The notes: a model not told the origin generated them from the letters alone. Numbered from the stretch's first letter, positions 46,050 through 54,744 are shown. The stretch is 64,000 nucleotides of DNA from Heliomicrobium sp. (GCA_021155085.1 JAJNQA010000027.1:30058-94057), one strand, 5' to 3'. Numbers and translations are program-made.

Positions 46050-47936
46050 CTACTTAGGCGGCAAAACGCCCACTTTCAAATGCGAACTCAGTTTCGCTGA
46101 ATGGAATACGCGATGCGTCGCTTTCTGAAAATCGGCCTCCGTCGCGCTGTAGATGTCCACGAATTTCTGCGGATTGCGATCCACCAGCGGGAACCAGGAA
46201 CTTTGCACCTGCACCATCAGCCTGTGACCAGCCTTAAAGGTGTGATTCACGTCCTGCAAGTTGAATTTCACTTCGGTCGGCTGGTTGGGCGTAAAGGCTT
46301 CCGGTTTTGAGAAACTGTTGCGGAACTTGCCGCGCATGACTTCGGCGCGAACCAGCATTTGGAAACCGCCCATCTTCACCTGTGGCGACGTGTTCGGCGC
46401 GTTGTCGGGAGAAACGTCAATCAGCTTGACCACGAAATCCGCATCCGTGCCGGTGATCGAAACAAAGAGGTCAGCCAGAATCGGCCCGGCCAGTGTGATG
46501 TCTTCCGCCAGAGCTTCCGTCTGGAAGGTGAGCACATCAGACCGCCGCGCGGCAAAACGCTGATCTTCGATCATATAGCCCGTGCCGCGATTGTTCGTGA
46601 TTTCGTTGGTGTAGGGGACGGGCTTCGATGGATCGCTGATGTATTCGGCAAATTCGGAAGCTGATGATTTCGGCGCATCAAACGACAACTTGCCGTTCGC
46701 CTGAAAGTAAAGCGAACGCGCTTGTAATTGCGTCGGCGGCCACTGTTCGTAAGATTTCCATTCATTTGCGCCTGTCTGAAAGACCGATGCTTCCGGTAGT
46801 TTCAACTCACCTTTGTCTTTCAGATGGAAATTGAAAAACTTCAGCTCGACGTTTTCCCTGTACCATTCGGAAGGCTTTGAATCGAACCGGATGTTGCCCA
46901 GCGATTCACCCGTCCCGCGCGCCCATCCGCCGTGCGACCACGGTCCCATCACCAGCGCGTTGAAACCTTGCGGATTGTTCTTTTCGAGTTTCTGGTAAAT
47001 GTTCAACGGCCCAAACAGGTCTTCCGCGTCAAACCATCCGCCGACGGTCAGAACAGCAGTGTGGACTTTCTTCAAATGCGGCAGCGTGCTGTGCGACTGC
47101 CAGAATTCGTCGTAGGCGCCGTGGGCCATCACATCGTTCCAATACTTGTTCTGCCCCTTGAAATACTTCTTTTGCGCATTCGCCACCGGGCCGAGTTCGA
47201 GAAAAAACTGATAGGCGTCTGGAGTTCCCATATTGAAACTTTTGAATTGATTTTGCGTCGGTTGGGGACGCGGCATCCCGAAAAATTGATTGAAGCTGAA
47301 ACAGTCAAACAGGAAAAACGCGCCGTTGTGATGATCGTCATCGCCCAGAAACATATCGCCAATCGGAGCCTGTGGCGAAGACGCTTTCAATGCCGGATGC
47401 GGATCGTGCAGCGCCGCCGCCGCGTAAAAGCCTGGATAGGAGATGCCATACATTCCCGCGCGGCCATTGTTGTTCGGGATGTTTTTGATCAGCCAGTCAA
47501 TCGTGTCGTACGTGTCGCTCGCTTCGTCAATGTCGGCGTTCGATTTTTTGTTCGGAATGAAGGGCCGAACGTCTTCATAGTCGCCTTCGGACAGAAACGT
47601 CCCGCGCACATCCTGGTAAACGAAAATATACCCTTCCGAGGTGAACAGGGGGGAGGGGCCAAGCGACGGACGATACACTTCCACGCCATAAGGGCCGGAG
47701 CCATAAGGTGTGCGCGTCATCAGAAATGGGTATTTCTGGGAACCGTCTTTCGGCGAGTACACAACGGTGTACAGCTTCCTGCCATCACGCATCGGAATCT
47801 GATGTTCCGATTTAACGTAGTTCGCCTTGACATCGGCGATGGAACTTTGCGCCTGTACCGGCTGAGCAGGAGGGAAGGACGAAAACGCCAGGACTGCAAT
47901 ACACAGCAGTGGCGCGAGCAATCTGAATAACTTCAT
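46050..47936 (-). CDS. CocE/NonD-family hydrolase (X-Pro dipeptidyl-peptidase S15-like), secreted
   Basis: signal peptide MKLFRLLAPLLCIAVLA; GISYPGFY Ser nucleophile region. Confidence 0.75.
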   Translation of the reverse strand: MKLFRLLAPLLCIAVLAFSSFPPAQPVQAQSSIADVKANYVKSEHQIPMRDGRKLYTVVYSPKDGSQKYPFLMTRTPYGSGPYGVEVYRPSLGPSPLFTSEGYIFVYQDVRGTFLSEGDYEDVRPFIPNKKSNADIDEASDTYDTIDWLIKNIPNNNGRAGMYGISYPGFYAAAALHDPHPALKASSPQAPIGDMFLGDDDHHNGAFFLFDCFSFNQFFGMPRPQPTQNQFKSFNMGTPDAYQFFLELGPVANAQKKYFKGQNKYWNDVMAHGAYDEFWQSHSTLPHLKKVHTAVLTVGGWFDAEDLFGPLNIYQKLEKNNPQGFNALVMGPWSHGGWARGTGESLGNIRFDSKPSEWYRENVELKFFNFHLKDKGELKLPEASVFQTGANEWKSYEQWPPTQLQARSLYFQANGKLSFDAPKSSASEFAEYISDPSKPVPYTNEITNNRGTGYMIEDQRFAARRSDVLTFQTEALAEDITLAGPILADLFVSITGTDADFVVKLIDVSPDNAPNTSPQVKMGGFQMLVRAEVMRGKFRNSFSKPEAFTPNQPTEVKFNLQDVNHTFKAGHRLMVQVQSSWFPLVDRNPQKFVDIYSATEADFQKATHRVFHSAKLSSHLKVGVLPPK

Positions 47937-48097
47937 CAAGCAATCTCCTTGGGGTTGATTTCGACGGCAGAGCATAAACGACGGTCGGCGGGAAATCCAC
48001 GCCTGCAAATGCCTGCCGGCAGCCTGTCAATCTCGCAACCGGTAAGCGAGAATTCGCCGCTATTCAAGCTGTTGATTTCACTTACGGCAGAGGATAA

Positions 48098-49537
48098 ATG
48101 AATAACGAAAACGAGTTCGGCAAACCGCCGCTCCTTCGCTCGCTCAAACTGCGCGATCTGGTTCTGTTCAATTTGGTTGCGGTGCTGGGGTTGCGGCATC
48201 TGGCAATTTCGGCCAACTTTGGCCCCGGCGCGCTGGCGCTGTGGGGACTGGCCGCGCTCTTCTTTTTCATTCCCCAAGGTCTGGCCGTGATTGAACTGTC
48301 ATCGCGATTTCCGAATGAAGGTGGAATCTACTTCTGGACGAAGCAGGCGCTGGGAGAAGGGCATGGGTTTTTGTGTGGCTGGTGTTACTGGATCAACAAT
48401 GTTCTTTATTATCCCAATTTGCTGATCACGTCAGCCGTCATCGCGACGTACATTGTGGGAAAAGGCGACAGCGGATTCAGCGGCAATTGGAGCTACGTTT
48501 TGCCCGCGACGCTAATTGCGTTGTGGCTGGCAGTCATCATCAATATCGTGGGAGTAGGAACGGGAAAATGGCTGCAAAACGCCGGCGCGCTCGGCACGTA
48601 TATTCCCGGACTGATCATCATCCTGCTTGGCATCCACGGCGCAATCTACGGCCCGCCTGCCAACCCGATCAACATTTCCACGCTGATACCGGATTTTTCC
48701 GATTTTGGATCATTGAACTTGCTCTCTGCCGTGGCCTTCGCCTTTGCCGGGCTGGAACTCGTTTCGACTATGGGCGATGAAGTGGAGAACCCAAAGCGAA
48801 ATCTCTCCCGATCCGTTTTTATCGCCGCGCCACTGATTGCGATGGCTTATGTGCTGGGCACGGCAGCGCTGCTCTGGCTGGTGCCGAAACAGGAGATCAA
48901 TGTTGTTTCGGGAATTCTGCAAGCCATCTCAAACGGCATCGGCAATCTTCCTGGAAGCTTGCGCTGGCTGATGCCGGTTTGCGCCGCACTGTACACTCTC
49001 GGAAACATTGGCTGCGTCGGAGCCTGGCTGGTTGGACCGGCGCGCGTGGCATTTGTTATCGGTTTGGATCGTTACTTTCCGGCGTGGTTCGGCAAGGTGC
49101 ATCCAACATGGCGCACACCATATGCCGCCATTCTGGTTCAGGCTTCACTGGCAACGGTTTTTCTCCTGCTTTCAATTCTGGGGAAAGGCACCACCGTTGA
49201 AGAGGTTTATCTGATTTTGCTCGACACGCAAGTGCTGATCTACTTCATTCCCTATGCCTATCTCTTCATCGTTTTTCTGCTTCACCGCATACGCGCTGAA
49301 GCTTGCCAGGGCGTGGTACTCGCGCCAGGAGGTCGTCCAGGCGCGTGGATTATTGGGGGAAGCGGCCTGACTCTGACCTTGTTCGCGATGGTTGTCGCGA
49401 TGATTCCACCAGCGTCCAGTGCCCATCCAATGCTGTTTAGAGCAAAGGTGATCGGGGGCGCTCTGGGTTTCATTTTGGTCGGCGGAGTAATCTACGGAAT
49501 TGCAAAGATGAAGAATAAAGGCACTTTTAGGAAGTAA
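48098..49537 (+). CDS. APC-family amino acid permease
   Basis: 12 TM, APC signature FGPGALALWGLAALFFFIPQGL...NEGGIYFW. Confidence 0.8.
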   Translation: MNNENEFGKPPLLRSLKLRDLVLFNLVAVLGLRHLAISANFGPGALALWGLAALFFFIPQGLAVIELSSRFPNEGGIYFWTKQALGEGHGFLCGWCYWINNVLYYPNLLITSAVIATYIVGKGDSGFSGNWSYVLPATLIALWLAVIINIVGVGTGKWLQNAGALGTYIPGLIIILLGIHGAIYGPPANPINISTLIPDFSDFGSLNLLSAVAFAFAGLELVSTMGDEVENPKRNLSRSVFIAAPLIAMAYVLGTAALLWLVPKQEINVVSGILQAISNGIGNLPGSLRWLMPVCAALYTLGNIGCVGAWLVGPARVAFVIGLDRYFPAWFGKVHPTWRTPYAAILVQASLATVFLLLSILGKGTTVEEVYLILLDTQVLIYFIPYAYLFIVFLLHRIRAEACQGVVLAPGGRPGAWIIGGSGLTLTLFAMVVAMIPPASSAHPMLFRAKVIGGALGFILVGGVIYGIAKMKNKGTFRK

Positions 49538-49682
49538 GCTATGAAAATGAAGTAACATCACTTTCAGAAATGATAACGCGTATTATGGTAAAACAACTCG
49601 TTTCTCACTTATCACGCATGCAAAATATCGATATTGTGTACCATCAAGGCAGAATATATTTTCTAAATGAGAGATTATTTTC

Positions 49683-49711
49683 TTGACGGCCTTCCCGGAC
49701 AGGAGTATAAA
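49683..49711 (+). promoter_or_regulatory. near-consensus sigma70 promoter (-35 TTGACG, 17-bp spacer, -10 TATAAA) in AT-rich leader upstream of tRNA array
   Basis: TTGACG-gccttcccggacaggag-TATAAA. Confidence 0.6.
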
Positions 49712-50095
49712 ACGCGACGGTGAAAGTGAATGAAGTAGCTTTCAGCCAGTTCAAGGTAAAGATCAAATTTTCGGTAATTAATTTTCAAGACACTTTTCAG
49801 GACGCTATGTTGCTCAATGGACACAAAAACTTGATAGCCGCCAACGCGACAACGAAACGTCGCGCCGCCATCTCAGCATGTTGGCAATTTGGCGTCGTGG
49901 TGACCTTGGGAAGCAACCCGAATACGCCATCCAACAATTCGATTGATTCGATGATGCTGCGAGATAAAACCAGACGGGCGGGATCGCCCGAACGTTTAGT
50001 CGGCGGTTATCTCTTTAGTCATCAATGTTAAGCCAGCGGGAGCGGTTTCCCGCTCCCGAAAATTCCAAGTTCAAGTACACCAGGGATTTAAGGTC

Positions 50096-50140
50096 GAGCG
50101 GGCCGCTTCAACGAAAGTTCTGAAGCTTGCCCGCTTTTTC
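50096..50140 (+). terminator. rho-independent terminator/attenuator hairpin + TTTTT just upstream of first tRNA
   Basis: GCGGGC-CGCTTCA-acgaaagttc-TGAAGC-TT-GCCCGC-TTTTT. Confidence 0.6.
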
Positions 50141-50176
50141 CTTTTGCGGCAGCGCCTTCAGCAAAAAGGTTTCGAC

Positions 50177-50262
50177 GCCGGAGAAGCCCGATGGACGGGC
50201 GGCGGACTGTAAACCCGTTGTGGACGTGTGTCTGCAAGCAGGTTCGATTCCTGCCTCCGGCA
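50177..50262 (+). tRNA. tRNA-Tyr(GTA), type II (19-nt variable arm); non-canonical A8-A9
   Basis: acceptor GCCGGAG/CTCCGGC, loop CTGTAAA, T-arm GCAGG-TTCGATT-CCTGC, disc A; A31-C39 mismatch. Confidence 0.55.
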
Positions 50263-50267
50263 TTTCG

Positions 50268-50339
50268 GGGAGTATGTGGTAACTGGCAACCGGTCGGTCT
50301 CCAAAACCGATATTCCAGGTTCAAATCCTGGTACTCCTG
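50268..50339 (+). tRNA. tRNA-Trp(CCA)
   Basis: anticodon arm TCGGT-CTCCAAA-ACCGA, T-arm CCAGG-TTCAAAT-CCTGG, G1-U72; irregular D-arm. Confidence 0.6.
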
Positions 50340-50358
50340 TCAACGTTTGTAGCTATTT

Positions 50359-50446
50359 AGAGGCGTGGCGGAATTGGCAATCGCACTGGTCCGCTAAACC
50401 AGGGAGCTACTACAGTCTCGTGTGGGTTCGAGTCCCACCGCCTCTG
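50359..50446 (+). tRNA. tRNA-Ser(GCT), type II; C33 in anticodon loop
   Basis: acceptor AGAGGCG/CGCCTCT, CTGGT-CCGCTAA-ACCAG, long variable arm, T-arm GTGGG-TTCGAGT-CCCAC. Confidence 0.6.
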
Positions 50447-50465
50447 TCGAGTTATTTTTAGTTAC

Positions 50466-50550
50466 GGAGGGTTAGCCTAATTGGTAAGGCAGCAGTTTCG
50501 AAAACTGCCGTAGGATTGTACCTTTGAGGGTTCGAGTCCCTCACCCTCCT
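50466..50550 (+). tRNA. tRNA-Ser(CGA), type II; CCA encoded (50551-50553)
   Basis: acceptor GGAGGGT/ACCCTCC, GCAGT-TTCGAAA-ACTGC, T-arm GAGGG-TTCGAGT-CCCTC. Confidence 0.7.
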
Positions 50551-50600
50551 CCATTAAGTTCGGAGGTAATCAGCAACGCAATTAAGTTACAAATAGTTAT

Positions 50601-50684
50601 GGAGGGATGGCCGAATTGGCAAGGCAGTAGTTTTGAAAACTACCGGAGGTAACACTCTTCGGGGTTCGAGTCCCCGTCCCTTCG
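50601..50684 (+). tRNA. tRNA-Ser(TGA), type II
   Basis: acceptor GGAGGGA/TCCCTTC, GTAGT-TTTGAAA-ACTAC, T-arm CGGGG-TTCGAGT-CCCCG. Confidence 0.7.
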
Positions 50685-50715
50685 TCAGGTAGTAGTGTGT
50701 CTTGCAGGTACTTTG

Positions 50716-50791
50716 GCACTGGTAGCTCAGTTGGAATCAGAGCGCGGGCCTCCGAAGCCTGAGGTCGCGAGTTCGAGTCTCGCCCGGTGCA
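50716..50791 (+). tRNA. tRNA-Arg(CCG)
   Basis: acceptor GCACTGG/CCGGTGC, CGGGC-CTCCGAA-GCCTG, T-arm GCGAG-TTCGAGT-CTCGC. Confidence 0.7.
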
Positions 50792-50846
50792 TTTGACGTA
50801 AGTCGAACGTTATTTGAAAAGCCGGAAGTTATATTCAAATTACTTT

Positions 50847-50921
50847 GCGGGTGTGGCGCAAGCTGGTAGACGCGCAGCGCTAAGAACGCTGTTATTGGAG
50901 GTTCAAGTCCTCTCACCCGCA
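50847..50921 (+). tRNA. compact (type I, 75 nt) Leu-like tRNA with anticodon AAG
   Basis: acceptor GCGGGTG/CACCCGC, Leu-type D-arm GCG-CAAGCTGGTAGA-CGC, CAGCG-CTAAGAA-CGCTG, 5-nt variable loop, T-arm GGAGG-TTCAAGT-CCTCT, disc A. Confidence 0.5.
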
Positions 50922-50931
50922 TTTGGCGTTT

Positions 50932-51006
50932 GCAGGCATGGCGCAAATTGGCAGACGCGGCAGTCTCAAAAACTGCATTGTGAAGGTTCGAGTCCTTCTG
51001 CCTGCA
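50932..51006 (+). tRNA. compact (type I, 75 nt) Leu-like tRNA, anticodon CAA
   Basis: acceptor GCAGGCA/TGCCTGC, D-arm GCG-CAAATTGGCAGA-CGC, GCAGT-CTCAAAA-ACTGC, variable ATTGT, T-arm GAAGG-TTCGAGT-CCTTC, disc A. Confidence 0.55.
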
Positions 51007-51022
51007 TTATTGAAAGTTTTTT

Positions 51023-51098
51023 GTGGGTGTGGCGCAATTCAGGTAGACGCACCGGTCTCAGAAGCCGGTTGTTGGAGGTTCAAGTCCTCTCACCCACA
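51023..51098 (+). tRNA. compact (type I, 76 nt) Leu-like tRNA, anticodon CAG
   Basis: acceptor GTGGGTG/CACCCAC, D-arm GCG-CAATTCAGGTAGA-CGC, CCGGT-CTCAGAA-GCCGG, variable TTGTT, disc A. Confidence 0.55.
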
Positions 51099-51108
51099 TC
51101 AGATTTTC

Positions 51109-51181
51109 GTCGGCGTAGCTCAATTGGGAGAGCGCGAGTTTGCCAGGCTCGAGGTCGGGAGTTCAAACCTCCTCGCCGACT
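51109..51181 (+). tRNA. tRNA-Gly(GCC); CCA encoded (51182-51184)
   Basis: acceptor GTCGGCG/CGCCGAC, CGAGT-TTGCCAG-GCTCG, T-arm GGGAG-TTCAAAC-CTCCT, disc T. Confidence 0.7.
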
Positions 51182-51193
51182 CCATATTCTTTT

Positions 51194-51267
51194 GCACGCT
51201 TGGCCGAGTGGATTACAGGCGCAGGGCCGCAGCCCCTGTCAGGGCGGTTCGATTCCGTCAGCGTGCT
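51194..51267 (+). tRNA. Cys-like tRNA (anticodon GCA) with Ser-like D-arm, C33 and G37
   Basis: acceptor GCACGCT/AGCGTGC, disc T, CAGGG-CCGCAGC-CCCTG, T-arm GGCGG-TTCGATT-CCGTC. Confidence 0.45.
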
Positions 51268-51278
51268 TCATTTGATCT

Positions 51279-51354
51279 GCCGAAGTGGCGCAAACAGGCA
51301 GACGCGTGGAGCTTAAACCTCCGTCATTTGAGGGTTCGAGTCCCTCCTTCGGCA
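51279..51354 (+). tRNA. compact (type I, 76 nt) Leu-like tRNA, anticodon TAA
   Basis: acceptor GCCGAAG/CTTCGGC, D-arm GCG-CAAACAGGCAGA-CGC, TGGAG-CTTAAAC-CTCCG, short variable loop, T-arm GAGGG-TTCGAGT-CCCTC, disc A. Confidence 0.55.
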
Positions 51355-51365
51355 TTGTCAGTTTT

Positions 51366-51435
51366 TGCGGGTGGGCAAGTGCTCAGTTAGGTCTCATAAG
51401 CCTCGACTCGCTGGGAGCGTTACCCAGACCCGCAA
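51366..51435 (+). pseudogene. degenerate tRNA-like (CAT anticodon loop CTCATAA; non-canonical T-loop AGCGTTA)
   Basis: acceptor TGCGGGT/ACCCGCA pairs; D/T arms irregular. Confidence 0.3.
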
Positions 51436-51445
51436 TCAAAGTATG

Positions 51446-51521
51446 GGGCGCTGGGCAAGTCCGGTGAAGCCGTCGGTCTTTCAAGCTGAAGATCGTGGAT
51501 TCAAATCCCACACGACGCCCT
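51446..51521 (+). pseudogene. degenerate tRNA-like (TTC anticodon loop; T-stem A53-C61 mismatch and 2-nt insertion before 3' acceptor)
   Basis: GGGCGCTGGGCAAGT 5' end paralogous to 51366 copy; TCGGT-CTTTCAA-GCTGA. Confidence 0.3.
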
Positions 51522-51569
51522 ACTGTGTTTAGTTACATGATGTTACTCGGCAAGTAACTCGAAGTTACT

Positions 51570-51642
51570 GAGTCCGTGGCCTAATTGGCAAGGCAACAGC
51601 CTTTTAAGCTGTAAGATGTGGGTTCGATTCCCACCGGACTCA
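51570..51642 (+). tRNA. tRNA-Lys(TTT)
   Basis: acceptor GAGTCCG/CGGACTC, ACAGC-CTTTTAA-GCTGT, T-arm GTGGG-TTCGATT-CCCAC. Confidence 0.75.
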
Positions 51643-51660
51643 TTCGGATTTTTGAAGTTT

Positions 51661-51752
51661 GCTCCCGTAGCTTAAATGGAGAAAGCGGCGCGAAAATGAC
51701 GTGTCAGCATCGAGGGTCGCTGGAAATCCGGGTTCAAATCCCGGCTGGAGTC
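51661..51752 (+). tRNA. 92-nt tRNA-like gene with about 23-nt extra arm and non-canonical anticodon loop (AAAATGA); paralog of 51774 gene
   Basis: acceptor GCTCCCG/CTGGAGT (one C-U mismatch), D-arm GCTT-AAATGGAGA-AAGC, T-arm CCGGG-TTCAAAT-CCCGG. Confidence 0.35.
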
Positions 51753-51773
51753 TTTGTTTTTGGCTGCTGATTG

Positions 51774-51863
51774 GCTCCTGTAGCTCAACAGGCAGAGCGG
51801 CACGCTTATAACGTGTAAGCACCAGATCGGTGCGTGATCCGGGTTCGAATCCCGGCGGGAGCA
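51774..51863 (+). tRNA. 90-nt Ile-like tRNA, anticodon TAT, with about 22-nt stem-loop variable arm
   Basis: acceptor GCTCCTG/CGGGAGC, D-arm GCTC-AACAGGCA-GAGC, GCACG-CTTATAA-CGTGT, extra arm GCACC-agatc-GGTGC, T-arm CCGGG-TTCGAAT-CCCGG. Confidence 0.45.
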
Positions 51864-51874
51864 TCAGGATTTCT

Positions 51875-51949
51875 GGCGGGTGTAGCTCAGGCAGGCAGAG
51901 CGTCTGGCTGTGAACCAGAAAGCCGCCGGTTCAAATCCGGTCACTCGCC
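51875..51949 (+). tRNA. tRNA-His(GTG) with genome-encoded G-1
   Basis: G-1 + GCGGGTG/CACTCGC, disc C pairs G-1; TCTGG-CTGTGAA-CCAGA; T-arm GCCGG-TTCAAAT-CCGGT. Confidence 0.75.
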
Positions 51950-51967
51950 CTGATTTTTGAAGGTCTT

Positions 51968-52039
51968 TGGGATGTCGTCTAACTGGCAGGACGGTAGTCT
52001 TTGAAGCTATCTGTCGAGGTTCGAATCCTCGCATCCCGG
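51968..52039 (+). tRNA. tRNA-Gln(TTG), U1
   Basis: acceptor TGGGATG/CATCCCG, GTAGT-CTTTGAA-GCTAT, T-arm CGAGG-TTCGAAT-CCTCG. Confidence 0.65.
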
Positions 52040-52043
52040 TTTT

Positions 52044-52116
52044 GCACCTGAAGCTCAGTTGGCAGAGCACGCGGTTGATAACCGCGCGGTCGAAGGTTCG
52101 AGTCCTTCCGGGTGCA
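52044..52116 (+). tRNA. tRNA-Ile(GAT)
   Basis: acceptor GCACCTG/CGGGTGC, CGCGG-TTGATAA-CCGCG, T-arm GAAGG-TTCGAGT-CCTTC. Confidence 0.75.
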
Positions 52117-52126
52117 TCGAATTTGT

Positions 52127-52200
52127 GGGGCGTTGGTGTAGATGGTGAACACGCTCGGCTTTCAATCGAGAGATGGCCGGTTCGAGTCCGGTACGCCCTA
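52127..52200 (+). tRNA. tRNA-Glu(TTC)
   Basis: acceptor GGGGCGT/ACGCCCT, CTCGG-CTTTCAA-TCGAG, T-arm GCCGG-TTCGAGT-CCGGT. Confidence 0.7.
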
Positions 52201-52212
52201 CTCAAGTTTTAT

Positions 52213-52286
52213 GGGATCGTGGGCCAGTTGGAGTGGCTGCAGCCCTGTCAAGGCTGAGATCACGGGTTCGAGTCCCGTCGGTCCCG
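52213..52286 (+). tRNA. tRNA-Asp(GTC)
   Basis: acceptor GGGATCG/CGGTCCC, CAGCC-CTGTCAA-GGCTG, T-arm ACGGG-TTCGAGT-CCCGT. Confidence 0.75.
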
Positions 52287-52302
52287 TTTAGGATTTGAAA
52301 AT

Positions 52303-52375
52303 GGATCGGTAACTCAATGGTCAGAGTGCCTGCCTCTTAAGCAGGAAGTTGTGGGTTCAAGTCCCACCCGATCCA
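52303..52375 (+). tRNA. tRNA-Lys(CTT); CCA encoded (52376-52378)
   Basis: acceptor GGATCGG/CCGATCC, CCTGC-CTCTTAA-GCAGG, T-arm GTGGG-TTCAAGT-CCCAC. Confidence 0.75.
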
Positions 52376-52387
52376 CCAAAAAGTTTT

Positions 52388-52460
52388 TACAGGGTAGCTC
52401 AGTTGGCAGAGCGCCGGTCTGTTAAACCGGTCCGCGCGGGTTCGAGTCCCGCCCCTGTAG
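52388..52460 (+). tRNA. tRNA-Asn(GTT)
   Basis: acceptor TACAGGG/CCCTGTA, CCGGT-CTGTTAA-ACCGG, T-arm GCGGG-TTCGAGT-CCCGC. Confidence 0.75.
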
Positions 52461-52465
52461 CTTTT

Positions 52466-52542
52466 CAGAGTGTAGTTGCGGTTTGCGCAGAGCGCACGGC
52501 CCGGGCCCGTGAGGTCGCTCACTTCGAATCCTGCCACTCTGA
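52466..52542 (+). pseudogene. degenerate tRNA-like (acceptor CAGAGTG/CACTCTG pairs; anticodon hairpin CACGG-CCCGGGC-CCGTG; T-stem does not pair)
   Basis: TTCGAAT T-loop present but flanks unpaired. Confidence 0.3.
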
Positions 52543-52617
52543 TTTTAGCGGCGAATGCTGATGGAACTACATCTTGGAAAATGAACGTTTCATCAAATTT
52601 TTGTCGCCGCTTTTTTC

Positions 52618-52690
52618 GTGAGCGAAGCGCTAATGGCAGCGTGCTGGTCTTCCAAACCGGAGGTAGCGGGTTCGATCCCCGCCGCTCACT
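52618..52690 (+). tRNA. tRNA-Gly(TCC)
   Basis: acceptor GTGAGCG/CGCTCAC, CTGGT-CTTCCAA-ACCGG, T-arm GCGGG-TTCGATC-CCCGC; preceded by 8-bp-stem hairpin + T6 (52551-52616). Confidence 0.75.
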
Positions 52691-52695
52691 TTTTT

Positions 52696-52767
52696 GCTGG
52701 TGTAGCTCAACGGATGAGCCGCCGTCTCGTAAGCGGCAGGATATGGGTTCGAATCCCATCGCCAGCT
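52696..52767 (+). tRNA. tRNA-Thr(CGT)
   Basis: acceptor GCTGGTG/CGCCAGC, GCCGT-CTCGTAA-GCGGC, T-arm ATGGG-TTCGAAT-CCCAT. Confidence 0.7.
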
Positions 52768-52772
52768 TTGAT

Positions 52773-52844
52773 TGGGAGATCGTCTAATTGGCAGGATGGC
52801 AGATTCTGACTCTGTTGATTGTGGTTCGAATCCACATCTCCCAG
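52773..52844 (+). tRNA. tRNA-Gln(CTG), U1
   Basis: acceptor TGGGAGA/TCTCCCA, GCAGA-TTCTGAC-TCTGT, T-arm TGTGG-TTCGAAT-CCACA. Confidence 0.7.
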
Positions 52845-52850
52845 TTTTTT

Positions 52851-52923
52851 AGGAACGTAGCTCAGTGGCTAGAGCATTGGTCTTACAAACCAGAGGCCGT
52901 GGGTTCGAGTCCCACCGTTCCTA
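52851..52923 (+). tRNA. tRNA-Val(TAC)
   Basis: acceptor AGGAACG/CGTTCCT, TTGGT-CTTACAA-ACCAG, T-arm GTGGG-TTCGAGT-CCCAC; followed by 15-bp x2 tandem TTGCCCAATGCTTAT (52926-52955). Confidence 0.75.
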
Positions 52924-52965
52924 TTTTGCCCAATGCTTATTTGCCCAATGCTTATTTGAAAGCCT

Positions 52966-53038
52966 GGGATCGTAGCCAAACTGGAAAGGCGCCAGTCTTG
53001 CAAACTGGAAATTGTGGGTTCGAGCCCCACCGGTTCCA
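52966..53038 (+). tRNA. tRNA-Ala(TGC) with G3-U70 identity pair
   Basis: acceptor GGGATCG/CGGTTCC, CCAGT-CTTGCAA-ACTGG, T-arm GTGGG-TTCGAGC-CCCAC. Confidence 0.75.
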
Positions 53039-53048
53039 TTCTGATTTT

Positions 53049-53120
53049 CTGGGTGTGGGGCAGTGGCTGCCCACTTGCCTTGGGAGCAAGCCGACGCAGG
53101 TTCGAGTCCTGCCACCCAGA
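53049..53120 (+). tRNA. tRNA-Pro(TGG)
   Basis: acceptor CTGGGTG/CACCCAG, CTTGC-CTTGGGA-GCAAG, T-arm GCAGG-TTCGAGT-CCTGC. Confidence 0.75.
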
Positions 53121-53126
53121 CTTTAT

Positions 53127-53203
53127 GTTCGTGTAGCTCAGTGGAAATTTAGAGCGCTGGTCTACGAAACCAGAGGCCGAAGGTTCGAATCCTTCCACGA
53201 ACA
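53127..53203 (+). tRNA. tRNA-Arg(ACG)
   Basis: acceptor GTTCGTG/CACGAAC, CTGGT-CTACGAA-ACCAG, T-arm GAAGG-TTCGAAT-CCTTC. Confidence 0.75.
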
Positions 53204-53211
53204 TCAAATTT

Positions 53212-53283
53212 GGTTGGTTAGCACAACTGGCAGTGCGCTCGGCTGAAGCCCGAACGGACGGGGTTCGAGTCCTCGACCAACCA
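53212..53283 (+). tRNA. tRNA-Phe(GAA)
   Basis: acceptor GGTTGGT/ACCAACC, CTCGG-CTGAAGC-CCGAA, T-arm CGGGG-TTCGAGT-CCTCG; followed by 7-bp-stem hairpin 53290-53318. Confidence 0.7.
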
Positions 53284-53324
53284 TCAAATCAAATCTCCGA
53301 TTTCAAATTGGAGATTCGAGATGG

Positions 53325-53399
53325 GGTGATGTAGCTCAGTGGAATCAGAGCGACTGCCTCCTAAGCAGTAGGCCGTGAGTTCAAATCTCACCATCGCCA
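53325..53399 (+). tRNA. tRNA-Arg(CCT)
   Basis: acceptor GGTGATG/CATCGCC, ACTGC-CTCCTAA-GCAGT, T-arm GTGAG-TTCAAAT-CTCAC. Confidence 0.75.
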
Positions 53400-53407
53400 C
53401 TTCAAAT

Positions 53408-53481
53408 GTCCGCATAGCTCAGTTGGAGGCAGCACCCGCTCGGTACGCGGGAGGACGCCGGTTCGATTCCGGCTGCGGGCT
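53408..53481 (+). tRNA. tRNA-Thr(GGT); apparent C33 and 3-bp D-stem
   Basis: acceptor GTCCGCA/TGCGGGC, CCCGC-TCGGTAC-GCGGG, T-arm GCCGG-TTCGATT-CCGGC. Confidence 0.55.
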
Positions 53482-53497
53482 TAACCTGATAATCTAC

Positions 53498-53573
53498 GGG
53501 TCTGTCGTCTAATTGGAATCAAGGCGTCCGGCTTCTAACCGGGATGATGCAGGTTCGAGTCCTGCCAGGCCCT
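53498..53573 (+). tRNA. tRNA-Arg(TCT)
   Basis: acceptor GGGTCTG/CAGGCCC, TCCGG-CTTCTAA-CCGGG, T-arm GCAGG-TTCGAGT-CCTGC. Confidence 0.7.
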
Positions 53574-53597: not shown

Positions 53598-54155
53598 ATG
53601 GTAATCAGCAGAAAAGTCTTGCTACTCAACGCTTCTTACGAACCGCTCAGTGTGGTGACTGCGCCGAAGGCGTTGACGCTAGTTTTCAGGCACGTGGCCG
53701 AAGTGCTGGAGGCGGATCAAGGACACGTGCTGCGTTCGCCACGGTTTGTTTTCCAGGTGCCGTCGGTGATCCGGTTGACGCAATACATCAATATCCGCTC
53801 GCGGCAAAACCGCGTGGCCAATCGCCATCGGATTCTGGCGCGTGACCATTACCGCTGCCAGTATTGCGGCAAGCGTGGAAGTGCCTTTGAACTGACGCTT
53901 GATCACATCCTACCCAGATCACGTGGCGGTCGAACAGTGGCCGAAAACCTGGTTGCGTCTTGCCAGGCTTGTAACAACCGCAAAGGTGACCGGACGCCGG
54001 AAGAAGCCCGGATGCCTTTGCTGACTAATCCGGCGGCGTTGTTTTATGGATTGGAGCGGGTGGAGTTGCGGCAGGCGGCCGCGAATCGTCCGGAATGGAG
54101 AAAATATCTTTTCCTCGAACACGCGGAAGAGGAACTGGCGGTAATCTCCGCCTGA
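53598..54155 (+). CDS. HNH endonuclease
   Basis: ACGGAG SD; HNH motif DHYRCQYCGKRGSAFELTLDHILPRSRGG...NLVASCQACNNRKGDRT. Confidence 0.8.
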   Translation: MVISRKVLLLNASYEPLSVVTAPKALTLVFRHVAEVLEADQGHVLRSPRFVFQVPSVIRLTQYINIRSRQNRVANRHRILARDHYRCQYCGKRGSAFELTLDHILPRSRGGRTVAENLVASCQACNNRKGDRTPEEARMPLLTNPAALFYGLERVELRQAAANRPEWRKYLFLEHAEEELAVISA

Positions 54156-54315
54156 GGTTCCCAGTCGTCGCTGGCGCTGATTCGAGCAATGGAGTCTGTG
54201 TCGTTCTGCTGCCCGAATCGGCGCTGGCGGGCGAATTTTTTGAACTACATTTTTTGTCTGTCTTGACAGTTTCGCGAACCATCTGCTACTTTCCCGGCTT
54301 CGTTATTAGACATAC

Positions 54316-54390
<75 letters not shown>

Positions 54391-54744
54391 TTTCTCCCGA
54401 TTTCCTGGGAGTTTCTCTTTGGCACATGCCAAAACGTTCAACGTCAGCTCCCGAAGAGTTGCCGGAATTATGCAAAGACGATTTATCTTTAATCGAACTA
54501 AGTAGCTGCGATGATCCAAGCGCCACTCCGGCGCGTTCGTCGCAGCAGCTTTGCATTGGCAACCGCTGGCGTAGGACCTTACCTTAAAGCGCCTATCTTA
54601 CTTGGGCTTTTTGCTTTTGGGATTGTCCGCACCGGTTAATTTCAGATTTGAAATCCGGGGCCTGGGTTTCGTTGTTATGCCCGGGGTCCTGGTTTCAGGC
54701 TACAGACATCCCATCTGTCAGACCGTAAGTTTAGGTAAAAAGCA

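What the first reader, a model, noticed from the sequence alone, without database searches (positions are those of the whole stretch)
49540..50140. AT-rich 600-bp leader with a near-consensus promoter, two hairpins and a terminator immediately before the array
GC in this region drops sharply relative to its flanks. The promoter TTGACG-N17-TATAAA (49683-49711) is among the best sigma70 matches in the window. It is followed by ~400 nt containing a weak 103-aa ORF (GTG at the predicted TSS, unlikely to be coding), a 9-bp GC hairpin (50036-50059) and a terminator hairpin + T5 (50096-50140), 37 nt before the first tRNA. This could be a structured ncRNA, an attenuated read-through leader for the tRNA operon, or the remnant of an integration junction.
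Basis: seen in the sequence. Interest (0 to 1): 0.55.

Follow-up and report, generated by a model that had tools for sequence, protein, structure and literature searches.

The report
Translated leader switch before tRNA array
The gap in front of this 33-gene tRNA cluster is a conserved control region (promoter, small translated reading frame, switchable RNA hairpins, terminator) that probably lets ribosome activity decide whether the tRNA genes are transcribed, a type of control not described for such clusters.

Summary
The interpretation needs correcting.

- **What it is.** The 640-nt gap (49538-50176) is the conserved head of a long tRNA array plus HNH gene. Blastocatellia (Acidobacteriota) relatives either carry this unit or lack it.
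- **Conserved in about 40 homologous leaders.**
  - A promoter, TTGAC-N17/18-TATAA.
  - An ORF of 65-78 codons starting at ATG 49807, not at GTG 49720.
  - An invariant GC hairpin, H1, starting exactly 4 nt after the stop codon.
  - A small covarying hairpin, H2.
  - An intrinsic terminator, H3, with a U-tract 37 nt before tRNA-Tyr.
- **The ORF is under selection to stay open.** Only its frame is open (31 of 31). Indels keep the frame. Third codon positions vary most. It has no Pfam match and no confident predicted fold.
- **The switch.** Both arms of H1 are complementary to the 5' half of the terminator, which gives a mutually exclusive antiterminator fold.
- **Best reading.** This is a ribosome-dependent transcription attenuator gating the array (confidence about 0.5). 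The direction of control is unknown, and there are no expression data.
- **Classification.** A new variant of a known kind.
- **Rejected.** An integration scar and any known Rfam RNA.

The parts
49538..49651 (+). Non-conserved AT-rich spacer after the permease stop codon (49537)
   Evidence: Homology with L013 starts only at about 49659, and this stretch has no counterpart in the L022/L023 leaders. It is part of the GC minimum of the window.
49652..49682 (+). A/T-rich block upstream of the -35 (GAATATATTTTC...ATTATTTTC), UP-element-like
   Evidence: '(G)AATATTTTC' and 'AT(T/A)ATTTT(T)C' abutting TTGAC are conserved in the homologous leaders. The UP-element function is inferred.
49683..49688 (+). 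-35 hexamer TTGACG
   Evidence: TTGAC is found at the same place in every homologous leader where the contig reaches that far and the regex could be applied.
49706..49711 (+). -10 hexamer TATAAA (TATAAG in most relatives), spacer 17 nt (18 in most relatives)
   Evidence: The transcription start at about 49718-49720 is inferred, not measured.
49719..49806 (+). 5' untranslated region (about 88 nt here, 66-143 nt in relatives), poorly conserved. Partial Shine-Dalgarno AGGA at 49798-49801
   Evidence: A Shine-Dalgarno-like motif is present in the window and L013 lineages but absent in the majority (L022-type) lineage.
49807..50031 (+). Leader ORF: 74 codons plus TAA (MLLNGHKNLIAANATT...GGYLFSHQC)
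   Evidence: The ORF is 65-78 codons in about 31 distinct loci, and only this frame is open (31 of 31). Indels keep the frame. dN/dS is 0.34-0.73. Codon-position entropy is 0.57/0.57/0.73. The family has 97 protein clusters and no Pfam match. AlphaFold2 gives pLDDT 55.
50036..50058 (+). H1: GCGGGAGCGG-UUUC-CCGCUCCCG, 9 bp. Proposed anti-antiterminator
   Evidence: The stems are invariant in all 33 aligned leaders, although only its last 4 nt were part of the search pattern, and also in L152-L155, which were found through the protein. The loop varies in sequence and length (4-6 nt). H1 always starts 4 nt after the stop codon. It occurs once per locus and is not a dispersed repeat.
50060..50089 (+). 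H2: AAAUUCC / GGGAUUU closing a variable 16-nt loop
   Evidence: This helix folds in 35 of 37 leaders, with compensatory variants (AAAAUCC/GGGUUUU, AAAUCC/GGAUUU, AAUUCC/GGAAUU, AAAAUUCC/GGGAUUUU) and loops of variable length and sequence.
50096..50136 (+). H3: intrinsic-terminator hairpin (lower stem 50096-50103/50129-50136, upper stem 50105-50110/50121-50126)
   Evidence: H3 is present in the full-length minimum-energy fold of 32 of 33 leaders. Pairs are kept through compensatory changes (U-A in 9, C-G in 26; A-U in 2, G-C in 35) and several G-C/G-U changes.
50135..50145 (+). U-tract TTTTTCCTTTT after H3
   Evidence: A T-rich tail follows H3 in essentially all leaders (UUUCCUUUUG, UUUGCUUUUUG).
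50036..50112 (+). Alternative (antiterminator) fold: H1 3' arm 50049-50057 pairs with 50092-50102, and H1 5' arm 50036-50045 pairs with 50103-50112, with H2 on top
   Evidence: This is the RNAalifold consensus of the 33 leaders. It is the minimum-energy fold of the transcript cut before the H3 3' arm in 33 of 33 leaders, on average 5.7 kcal/mol better than folds that keep H1. No covariation is possible because the positions are invariant.
50146..50176 (+). Short spacer to the first tRNA, with no conserved promoter
   Evidence: There are 37 nt between T5 and tRNA-Tyr. The sequence is not conserved between subfamilies and no site of at least 10/12 lies there.
50177..50262 (+). tRNA-Tyr(GUA), first gene of the array (context)
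   Evidence: It is the first gene after the leader in the homologous arrays.

Best explanation
The region is the 5' control module of a long, horizontally mobile tRNA array (33 or more tRNA genes plus an HNH endonuclease gene) in a Blastocatellia genome.

**Layout (shown).** A sigma70-type promoter (49683-49711) with an A/T-rich upstream block would start a leader transcript of about 460 nt. The leader carries a 74-codon ORF (49807-50031). Exactly 4 nt after its stop codon come three hairpins:
- H1, GC-rich and invariant.
- H2, small and covarying.
- H3, an intrinsic terminator with a U-tract, 37 nt before tRNA-Tyr.

No conserved promoter lies between H3 and tRNA-Tyr, so polymerases from this promoter must pass H3 to reach the array.

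**The switch (shown by folding).** Both arms of H1 are complementary to the 5' half of H3. 'H1 + H3' (terminator on) and 'unfolded H1 paired with the H3 5' half' (antiterminator) therefore exclude each other.

**How it is thrown (inferred).**
- A ribosome finishing the ORF sits on the 5' arm of H1.
- This frees the 3' arm of H1, next to H2, to capture GAGCGGG of the terminator before the terminator's 3' arm is made. Transcription then reads through into the tRNA genes.
- If no ribosome follows the polymerase closely, because translation is slow, stalled or absent, H1 folds first and H3 forms. The transcript ends at about 50139-50145.

Translation status would in this way gate expression of the tRNA set. 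The opposite polarity (a ribosome at the stop codon favouring termination) cannot be excluded from sequence alone.
For: **Conservation as one module.** The leader is conserved at the head of the array in loci with only 80-93% ThrS identity. It is also conserved in 30 metagenome loci and in loci found independently through the peptide (L152-L155). These sit next to different left neighbours: a permease, a different permease, an RND pump.

**Promoter.** TTGAC-N17/18-TATAA plus the A/T-rich block is conserved, while the surrounding 5'UTR diverges.

**ORF under selection to be translated.**
- Only the +1 frame is open, in 31 of 31 sequences. The other five frames carry 2.6-4.7 stops on average.
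- Gap runs are multiples of 3 in 14 of 17 cases inside the ORF, against 6 of 19 and 13 of 34 in the flanks.
- Third-position entropy is in excess (p = 0.002).
- Peptide positions are conserved across 93 family members.

**Geometry.** The spacing from stop codon to H1 is 4 nt in every sequence seen. This holds despite TAA/TAG switches, different C-terminal residues and different spacer bases.

**Terminator.** Compensatory pairs and a U-rich tail are present.

**Alternative fold.**

**Published support.**
- A hairpin 5 bp after a stop codon is repressed by the terminating ribosome (termination efficiency falls from about 90% to below 10%). A distance above 27 nt escapes this repression (PMC4824070). 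H1 lies within that reach and H3, 64 nt away, does not. This fits a relay through H1.
- Long tRNA arrays are thought to need low default expression and are regulated in Anabaena (PMC8421152).
Against: - There are no expression, 5'-end or 3'-end data.
- H1 and the antiterminator segments are invariant, so the alternative fold has no covariation support. It rests on one observed complementarity.
- The H3 5' arm was fixed by my search pattern in 30 of the loci.
- Replacing the H3 5' half by shuffled sequence changes the truncated-transcript energy of the window by only about 1 SD.
- With H1's 5' arm masked, terminator and antiterminator are nearly isoenergetic at full length. The outcome depends on kinetics that I could not simulate.
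- The ORF is 3-5 times longer than classical leader peptides and has no run of regulatory codons.
- The majority lineage has no Shine-Dalgarno motif.
- Its conserved residues would also fit a small protein that acts in trans.
Confidence: 0.5

Rival explanations
1. An ordinary small-protein gene with its own promoter and terminator sits in front of the array. H1 and H3 only end and stabilise its mRNA. The tRNAs are made by constitutive leak through H3 or from unrecognised internal promoters.
For: The peptide family has conserved residues along its length and is called as a gene in 97 clusters. H3 is a good terminator. The array contains larger spacers at 50792-50845, 51356-51568 and 52462-52617 that could hold promoters.
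Against: - There is no Pfam match and no confident fold even with a 93-sequence alignment (pLDDT 55, pTM 0.13).
- Constraint on the protein is weak (dN/dS 0.34-0.73).
- In every contig long enough to tell, the gene sits at an array head.
- This reading explains neither the invariant 4-nt stop-to-H1 spacing nor the complementarity of H1 to the terminator's 5' half.
- No other match of at least 10/12 to the promoter consensus lies in the array, apart from one inside tRNA-Val.
Confidence: 0.2
2. A factor-dependent attenuator: an RNA-binding protein (possibly the basic leader peptide itself) or another trans factor binds the invariant H1. This factor, rather than the ribosome, decides between the terminator and antiterminator folds.
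For: Sequence invariance of both H1 arms goes beyond what base pairing needs. The two mutually exclusive folds exist. The peptide is basic and conserved.
Against: Invariance is equally explained by each base having to pair in two structures. The fixed stop-to-H1 distance points to the ribosome. No RNA-binding domain was detected.
Confidence: 0.12
3. A DNA-level control: the two GAGCGG...CCGCTC inverted repeats (H1, and the palindrome GAGCGGGCCGCTC at 50096-50108) are operators for a repressor that blocks elongation into the array.
For: The same 6-nt inverted-repeat core occurs twice, about 56 bp apart, and is invariant. The only characterised long tRNA array is repressor-controlled (PMC8421152, PMC10272220).
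Against: - Half-site spacing differs between the two copies (4-6 nt against 1 nt).
- The spacing varies in length among lineages at H1, which is unlike a dimer operator.
- The sites lie 330-400 bp downstream of the promoter.
- The second copy is embedded in a hairpin followed by a U-tract, with RNA-type covariation.
- The Anabaena TrcR-type repeat motif is absent from the window.
Confidence: 0.05
4. A non-coding structured RNA or sRNA ending at H3. The open frame would be incidental.
For: The 3' leader folds strongly (z = -4.24). The promoter plus terminator delimit a discrete RNA of about 420 nt.
Against: The frame-specific openness, frame-preserving indels and third-position excess argue against it. 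There is no Rfam match. The 5' two thirds show no conserved structure.
Confidence: 0.05
5. A decaying integration junction or att-site remnant of the element that brought in the array.
For: GC is low. The array plus HNH is present or absent among close relatives.
Against: The sequence is conserved and ordered in about 40 lineages and in several genomic contexts. The two junctions share no repeat of 9 nt or more. No integrase gene is evident beside the array.
Confidence: 0.02

Closest known systems
Ribosome-mediated (leader-peptide) transcription attenuators of amino-acid operons (E. coli trp, his, leu, thr, pheA, pheST type; from established knowledge)
   Same: A promoter-proximal translated ORF is followed by an anti-antiterminator (1:2), antiterminator (2:3) and terminator (3:4) arrangement with a U-tract. 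The ribosome's position relative to segment 1 selects the fold.
   Different: - The ORF has 65-78 codons rather than 14-30.
- It has no run of codons for a regulatory amino acid.
- The ORF ends before segment 1, so the informative ribosome position is the stop codon.
- The regulated genes are tRNAs, not biosynthetic enzymes.
- The whole of H1, both arms, pairs with the terminator's 5' half.
Coupling-sensing attenuators pyrBI and pyrE of E. coli (from established knowledge; pyrBI is discussed in PMC4824070)
   Same: Read-through depends on a ribosome following RNA polymerase closely enough to interfere with hairpin formation. Longer leader or upstream ORFs are used, and no amino-acid codon run is needed.
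   Different: In pyrBI and pyrE the ribosome physically prevents the terminator hairpin itself. Here the terminator starts 64 nt after the stop codon, beyond direct reach (above 27 nt, PMC4824070), so the effect would have to be relayed by H1. No UTP-sensitive pause sites were examined.
Anabaena sp. PCC 7120 trn operon, an L-type tRNA array (PMC8421152, PMC10272220)
   Same: It is a long tRNA array in one orientation, patchily distributed, with a neighbouring HNH endonuclease gene. It is transcribed from a sigma70-type promoter and kept under regulatory control linked to the state of translation.
   Different: The Anabaena array is controlled at initiation by the ribbon-helix-helix repressor TrcR, which binds direct repeats over the -10 and the start site. 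That motif is absent here. Here the conserved features are a leader ORF and a terminator switch. PMC8421152 listed Acidobacteria among the phyla showing only accretive arrays (A-arrays), not long L-arrays.
T-box riboswitch leaders (tRNA-sensing terminator/antiterminator)
   Same: A terminator/antiterminator leader tied to tRNA biology.
   Different: There is no Rfam T-box hit even at E <= 1, no specifier or T-box sequence, and an ORF is present. It is not a member.

Membership tests
Leader-peptide transcription attenuator | Short ORF in the leader that is translated | tested here: met
   Sequence signatures of selection for translation are present. Translation itself was not measured. The length, 65-78 codons, is atypical.
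Leader-peptide transcription attenuator | Intrinsic terminator (GC-rich hairpin plus U-tract) between the leader ORF and the regulated genes | tested here: met
   H3 at 50096-50136 plus T5 CC T4. It is conserved, with compensatory pairs.
Leader-peptide transcription attenuator | Mutually exclusive antiterminator that uses the terminator's 5' arm | tested here: inconclusive
   It is predicted in 33 of 33 truncated transcripts and by RNAalifold. All positions are invariant, so there is no covariation, and the energy control is weak.
Leader-peptide transcription attenuator | ORF placed so that ribosome position selects the fold | tested here: met
   The stop codon lies 4 nt before H1 in every leader. 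This is within the range where a terminating ribosome blocks a hairpin (PMC4824070).
Leader-peptide transcription attenuator | Run of codons for the regulating amino acid | tested here: not met
   No codon runs appear in any of the peptides. It therefore cannot be filed with the amino-acid-specific class.
Leader-peptide transcription attenuator | Read-through changes with translation of the leader | not testable with these tools
   This needs reporter fusions, Term-seq or a coupled in-vitro system.
Sigma70-type promoter | -35 and -10 hexamers at 16-18 nt spacing, conserved in orthologous positions | tested here: met
   TTGACG-17-TATAAA, a 10/12 match. It is conserved in all leaders with enough upstream sequence. 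The -10 lacks the usual final T. The start site is unmapped.
L-type tRNA array (PMC8421152; array unit of PMC4758250) | At least 20 tRNA genes, one orientation, at least 2 per kb | tested here: met
   33 tRNAs lie in 3.4 kb, all on the + strand.
L-type tRNA array (PMC8421152; array unit of PMC4758250) | Patchy distribution among close relatives, and an HNH endonuclease neighbour | tested here: met
   The array is present in L013, L014, L022 and L023 and absent in L019, L020, L024, L025, L029 and L030 at the same tRNA-Val-thrS locus. The HNH gene lies at 53598-54155.
TrcR-type control of L-arrays (Anabaena) | Direct repeats TGTWNWWNWNNWGTANYNWA over the -10 and the start site | tested here: not met
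   There are 0 matches in the window with up to 1 mismatch.
Any Rfam family (T-box, known leaders, sRNAs) | Covariance-model match | tested here: not met
   The only hit in the leader is Termite-leu at E = 0.35 and 21.7 bits, against a gathering score of 51. Only tRNA matches reach gathering score in L013, L022, L152 and L154.

The most novel reading that the evidence does not exclude
The conserved leader peptide would be a nascent-chain sensor in the manner of TnaC or SecM. Its invariant features are N-terminal M-x-L-K-G-H-K-N, C-terminal G-x-Y-L-F-x-H-Q, and a TAG or TAA stop (never TGA). [quoted passage not shown] That would switch on a complete, mobile spare set of tRNA genes. It would be a direct feedback loop from the ribosome to the transcription of tRNA genes.
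Probability: 0.12. Interest if true: 0.85.

Novelty: new variant of a known kind. Interest (0 to 1): 0.62.

Why it matters
Long tRNA arrays spread horizontally among bacteria and phages. Their regulation is known in only one organism, Anabaena, where a repressor acts at the promoter. Current ideas see them as spare tRNA sets used under translational stress or against tRNA-targeting defence.

A conserved leader ORF plus terminator switch at the head of an array would be a second, mechanistically different solution. It would be ribosome-gated transcription of tRNA genes themselves. I found no description of this in the library searches.

It gives a compact cassette of about 500 nt that can be tested directly in reporters. 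It also extends L-type arrays to Acidobacteria. If the ORF turns out to be only a small gene, the finding reduces to a conserved promoter and leaky terminator, which is ordinary.

Tried and rejected
- **Rfam.** Permissive and gathering thresholds gave nothing in the leader, either in the window or in four homologous loci.
- **Exact look-up of the 103-aa ORF.** It is not on record. This led to the finding that the conserved frame starts at ATG 49807.
- **H1 pattern alone against viral contigs.** There were 28 hits, all unrelated GC hairpins with no arrays. A longer pattern was used for the metagenome scan. One of its 31 hits (L125) was also chance.
- **Long-range helix between N-terminal codons (GAUAGCCGCC) and C-terminal codons (GGCGGUUAUC).** It appears in the window's minimum-energy fold. 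Only about 5 bp survive in the other subfamily on inspection of the alignment, so it was dropped.
- **Energy-shuffle test of the antiterminator.** Not significant.
- **Structure prediction of the peptide.** No confident fold, so no fold search was run.
- **TrcR-type repeats.** Absent.
- **att-like repeats between the array junctions.** None.
- **Promoter between H3 and tRNA-Tyr.** None conserved.
- **The count of structure pairs.** Not run, because MAFFT offsets the H3 3' arm by one column between subfamilies. An alignment-free partner table was used instead.

Full report
**1. Setting**

The window comes from a Blastocatellia (Acidobacteriota) chromosome. The best ThrS matches are Blastocatellia MAGs at 80-93% identity. 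The local gene order is:
- S15/PepX peptidase, 46050-48008, minus strand.
- APC amino-acid permease, 48098-49537.
- A 640-nt gap, which is the finding.
- 33 tRNA genes, 50177-53573, all on the + strand.
- An HNH endonuclease gene, 53598-54155.
- tRNA-Val(GAC), 54316.
- thrS-infC-rpmI-rplT-pheST.

**2.

- **GC.** The lowest-GC 300-nt stretch of the whole window is 49498-49797 (0.347; next lowest 0.43; mean 0.564). The 3' half of the "leader" has normal GC.
- **Promoter.** TTGACG-N17-TATAAA lies at 49683-49711. At 10/12 it is one of 7 such sites in the window, and shuffles give 6.1 +/- 2.7. The consensus match by itself is therefore not evidence.
- **Hairpins.** The hairpins and T5 are as described. 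The 3' 157 nt fold better than 200 of 200 shuffles (z = -4.24).

**3. Comparative evidence changes the picture**

A ThrS-anchored scan of one genome per species returned two kinds of relative:
- Relatives with an array upstream of tRNA-Val-thrS: L013, L014, L015, L022, L023.
- Equally close relatives with only tRNA-Val-thrS: L019, L020, L024, L025, L029, L030.

Homology between occupied and empty loci resumes at about 54262, just upstream of tRNA-Val. The array plus HNH is therefore a gain/loss unit. This matches the "L-arrays" of Santamaria-Gomez et al. (PMC8421152), which often have an HNH neighbour. That paper listed Acidobacteria among the phyla showing only accretive arrays.

Aligning the sequence upstream of tRNA-Tyr showed that the leader is conserved as an ordered set of blocks, even at 80% ThrS identity. 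I then collected more leaders:
- A DNA pattern spanning the end of H1 and the 5' arm of H3 retrieved 31 metagenome loci, 30 of them homologous.
- A profile of the peptide retrieved 97 protein clusters. Four of these were looked up; one (P0094) returned no DNA. The three recovered contigs (L152, L153, L155), plus L154 found from P0085, carry the same leader.

The left neighbour differs among loci: this permease, a 40%-identical permease in L013, an RND pump in L023, L152 and L153. The right flank also differs in L153 and L154. The leader therefore belongs to the array unit, not to the chromosomal site.

**4. What is conserved**

- **(a) Promoter.** TTGAC[G/T]-N17/18-TATAA[A/G] is directly preceded by AT(T/A)ATTTT(T)C, with a second GAATATTTTC block about 20 nt further upstream. 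The rest of the 5'UTR diverges and varies in length from 66 to 143 nt.
- **(b) ORF.** It starts at ATG 49807.
  - The ORF is 65-78 codons long.
  - Only its frame is free of stops, in 31 of 31 distinct sequences. The other five frames average 2.6-4.7 stops.
  - In an unguided nucleotide alignment, 14 of 17 gap runs inside the ORF are multiples of three, against 6 of 19 and 13 of 34 in the flanks.
  - Third positions are the most variable (entropy 0.57/0.57/0.73, permutation p = 0.002).
  - Constraint on the protein is weak (dN/dS 0.34-0.73).
  - There is no Pfam hit. AlphaFold2 with 93 sequences gives pLDDT 55 and pTM 0.13.
  - Conserved peptide positions cluster at the N-terminus (M-x-L-K-G-H-K-N) and the C-terminus (G-x-Y-L-F), with scattered W, G, S and E.
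  - Stop codons are TAG (22) or TAA (9), never TGA.
- **(c) H1.** GCGGGAGCGG-loop-CCGCUCCCG is invariant in every leader. This includes positions not fixed by the search pattern and loci found by other routes. The loop varies in sequence and length (4-6 nt). H1 always begins 4 nt after the stop codon. It is unique in each locus.
- **(d) H2.** A 6-8-bp A/U-rich helix with compensatory variants and a variable loop.
- **(e) H3.** A two-tier GC hairpin followed by a U-rich tail. One pair switches U-A (9 sequences) to C-G (26), another A-U (2) to G-C (35), and there are several G-C/G-U changes.
- **(f) Spacer.** A non-conserved spacer of about 35-55 nt precedes tRNA-Tyr. No conserved promoter lies between H3 and the tRNA.

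**5. The switch**

RNAalifold on 33 leaders did not return H1+H3. It returned a long hairpin in which two pairings enclose H2:
- The 5' arm of H1 pairs with CCGCUYCAGC, the inner 5' arm of H3.
- The 3' arm of H1 pairs with GAGCGGG, the outer 5' arm of H3.

Single-sequence folding gives this picture:
- The full-length minimum-energy structure is H1+H2+H3 in 32 of 33 leaders.
- A transcript ending before the 3' arm of H3 folds into the alternative structure in 33 of 33 leaders. On average it is 5.7 kcal/mol better than folds that retain H1.
- With H1's 5' arm masked, the inner antiterminator helix plus H2 forms in truncated transcripts.

Every base of H1 has a partner in two structures, which explains the absolute conservation without covariation. 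It also means that covariation cannot test the alternative fold. The shuffle control on energy is weak. The two copies of the GAGCGG/CCGCUC core remain the main evidence.

**6. Mechanism proposed**

- **Shown.** The promoter, ORF, H1, H2, H3 and U-tract are conserved in fixed order and geometry, and two mutually exclusive folds exist.
- **Known from the literature.** A terminating ribosome blocks a hairpin that begins about 5 nt after the stop codon. It cannot reach one more than 27 nt away (PMC4824070). H1 starts 4 nt after the stop and H3 starts 64 nt after it.
- **Inferred, with a ribosome present.** A ribosome that reaches the stop codon close behind the polymerase keeps H1 open. The freed 3' arm, held next to the H3 5' arm by H2, forms the antiterminator, and transcription continues into the tRNA genes.
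- **Inferred, without a ribosome.** H1 folds first, H3 forms, and the transcript ends at about 50139-50145.

This is trp-type logic with the stop codon as the informative position. It also resembles the coupling-sensing pyrBI and pyrE attenuators. The reverse polarity cannot be excluded without kinetic or experimental data, namely full antiterminator without a ribosome and terminator when the ribosome masks H1's 5' arm. That polarity would match the induction of the Anabaena array by translational stress (PMC8421152).

**7. Rivals**

The main rival is a genuine small-protein gene with its own terminator. It explains the conserved residues. It does not explain the fixed stop-to-H1 spacing, the complementarity of H1 to the terminator, or the strict association with array heads. 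The structured fields give the weights for these other rivals:
- A trans-factor-dependent attenuator.
- A DNA operator pair.
- A non-coding RNA.
- An integration scar.

**8. Comparison and novelty**

The element works like a leader-peptide attenuator. It fails the "regulatory codon run" criterion, and its ORF is much longer than usual. The regulated genes are tRNAs.

The only characterised L-array uses a promoter-bound RHH repressor, TrcR (PMC10272220). Its motif is absent here.

Library searches for attenuation or leader peptides at tRNA arrays found nothing comparable. This is not proof of absence.

I classify it as a new variant of a known kind. The interest is moderate to high because it offers a concrete, testable answer to how mobile tRNA arrays are kept in check. 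It is tempered by the complete lack of expression data.

Noticed in passing
window 50846-51355 and 51661-51863: Four predicted tRNA-Leu genes are only 77-79 nt, so they lack the long variable arm expected of bacterial tRNA-Leu. Two predicted 'tRNA-Ile' genes (anticodons AAU and UAU) are 90-92 nt with a long extra arm. ARAGORN calls no tRNA-Met in the array.
   Followed up: no
window 51356-51568 and 52462-52547: The two large gaps in the array hold tRNA-like remnants that ARAGORN does not call:
- A Met-like sequence with anticodon loop CUCAUAA at 51367-51435.
- A partial Rfam tRNA hit at 51452-51511, which is Glu-UUC in L011 and L013.
- A degenerate Pro(CGG)-like piece, which is an intact tRNA in L013.

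   Followed up: partly
window 52548-52616: A conserved hairpin RNA of about 63 nt lies inside the array. Its outer stem is GCGGCGA/UCGCCGC and its inner stem GAUGGAAC/GUUUCAUC. In the window lineage it is followed by T6, 1 nt before tRNA-Gly(UCC). It is conserved in L013, L014, L015, L022, L023 and L150. Rfam gives only a weak YrlB (Y-RNA-like) hit at 26.9 bits. It could be an internal terminator or processing element, or a tRNA-like mini-helix.
   Followed up: partly
window 53598-54155: An HNH endonuclease gene (PF14279, PF01844) closes the array. The array plus HNH is absent from equally close relatives at the same tRNA-Val-thrS site and occurs in other genomic contexts (L153, L154). This fits homing-endonuclease-assisted spread, as proposed for L-arrays (PMC8421152).
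   Followed up: partly
L007 1-10000 (JGI 3300014202 contig Ga0181609_131234): In a near-identical strain, with identical HNH and 99.7% ThrS, only the last five array tRNAs remain. An element carrying a tyrosine-type (Phage_integrase) integrase, HTH and Acb5-like genes lies where the rest of the array and the leader would be. This is either an insertion or replacement inside the array, or an assembly chimera.
   Followed up: no
L152 3285-3365: The 5'UTR of the most divergent leader contains five tandem copies of GAGAAGATTC between the promoter and the ORF.
   Followed up: no
L123 and L127, just downstream of the leader: The first tRNA (Tyr) appears interrupted right after the anticodon loop by unrelated sequence, and ARAGORN finds no tRNA there. 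This may be an insertion or intron.
   Followed up: no
window 54263-54292 and 54394-54420: tRNA-Val(GAC), present in relatives with and without the array, has its own promoter-like site (TTGACA-N18-TACTTT) and a terminator-like hairpin right after it. It is probably the resident gene next to which the array sits.
   Followed up: no
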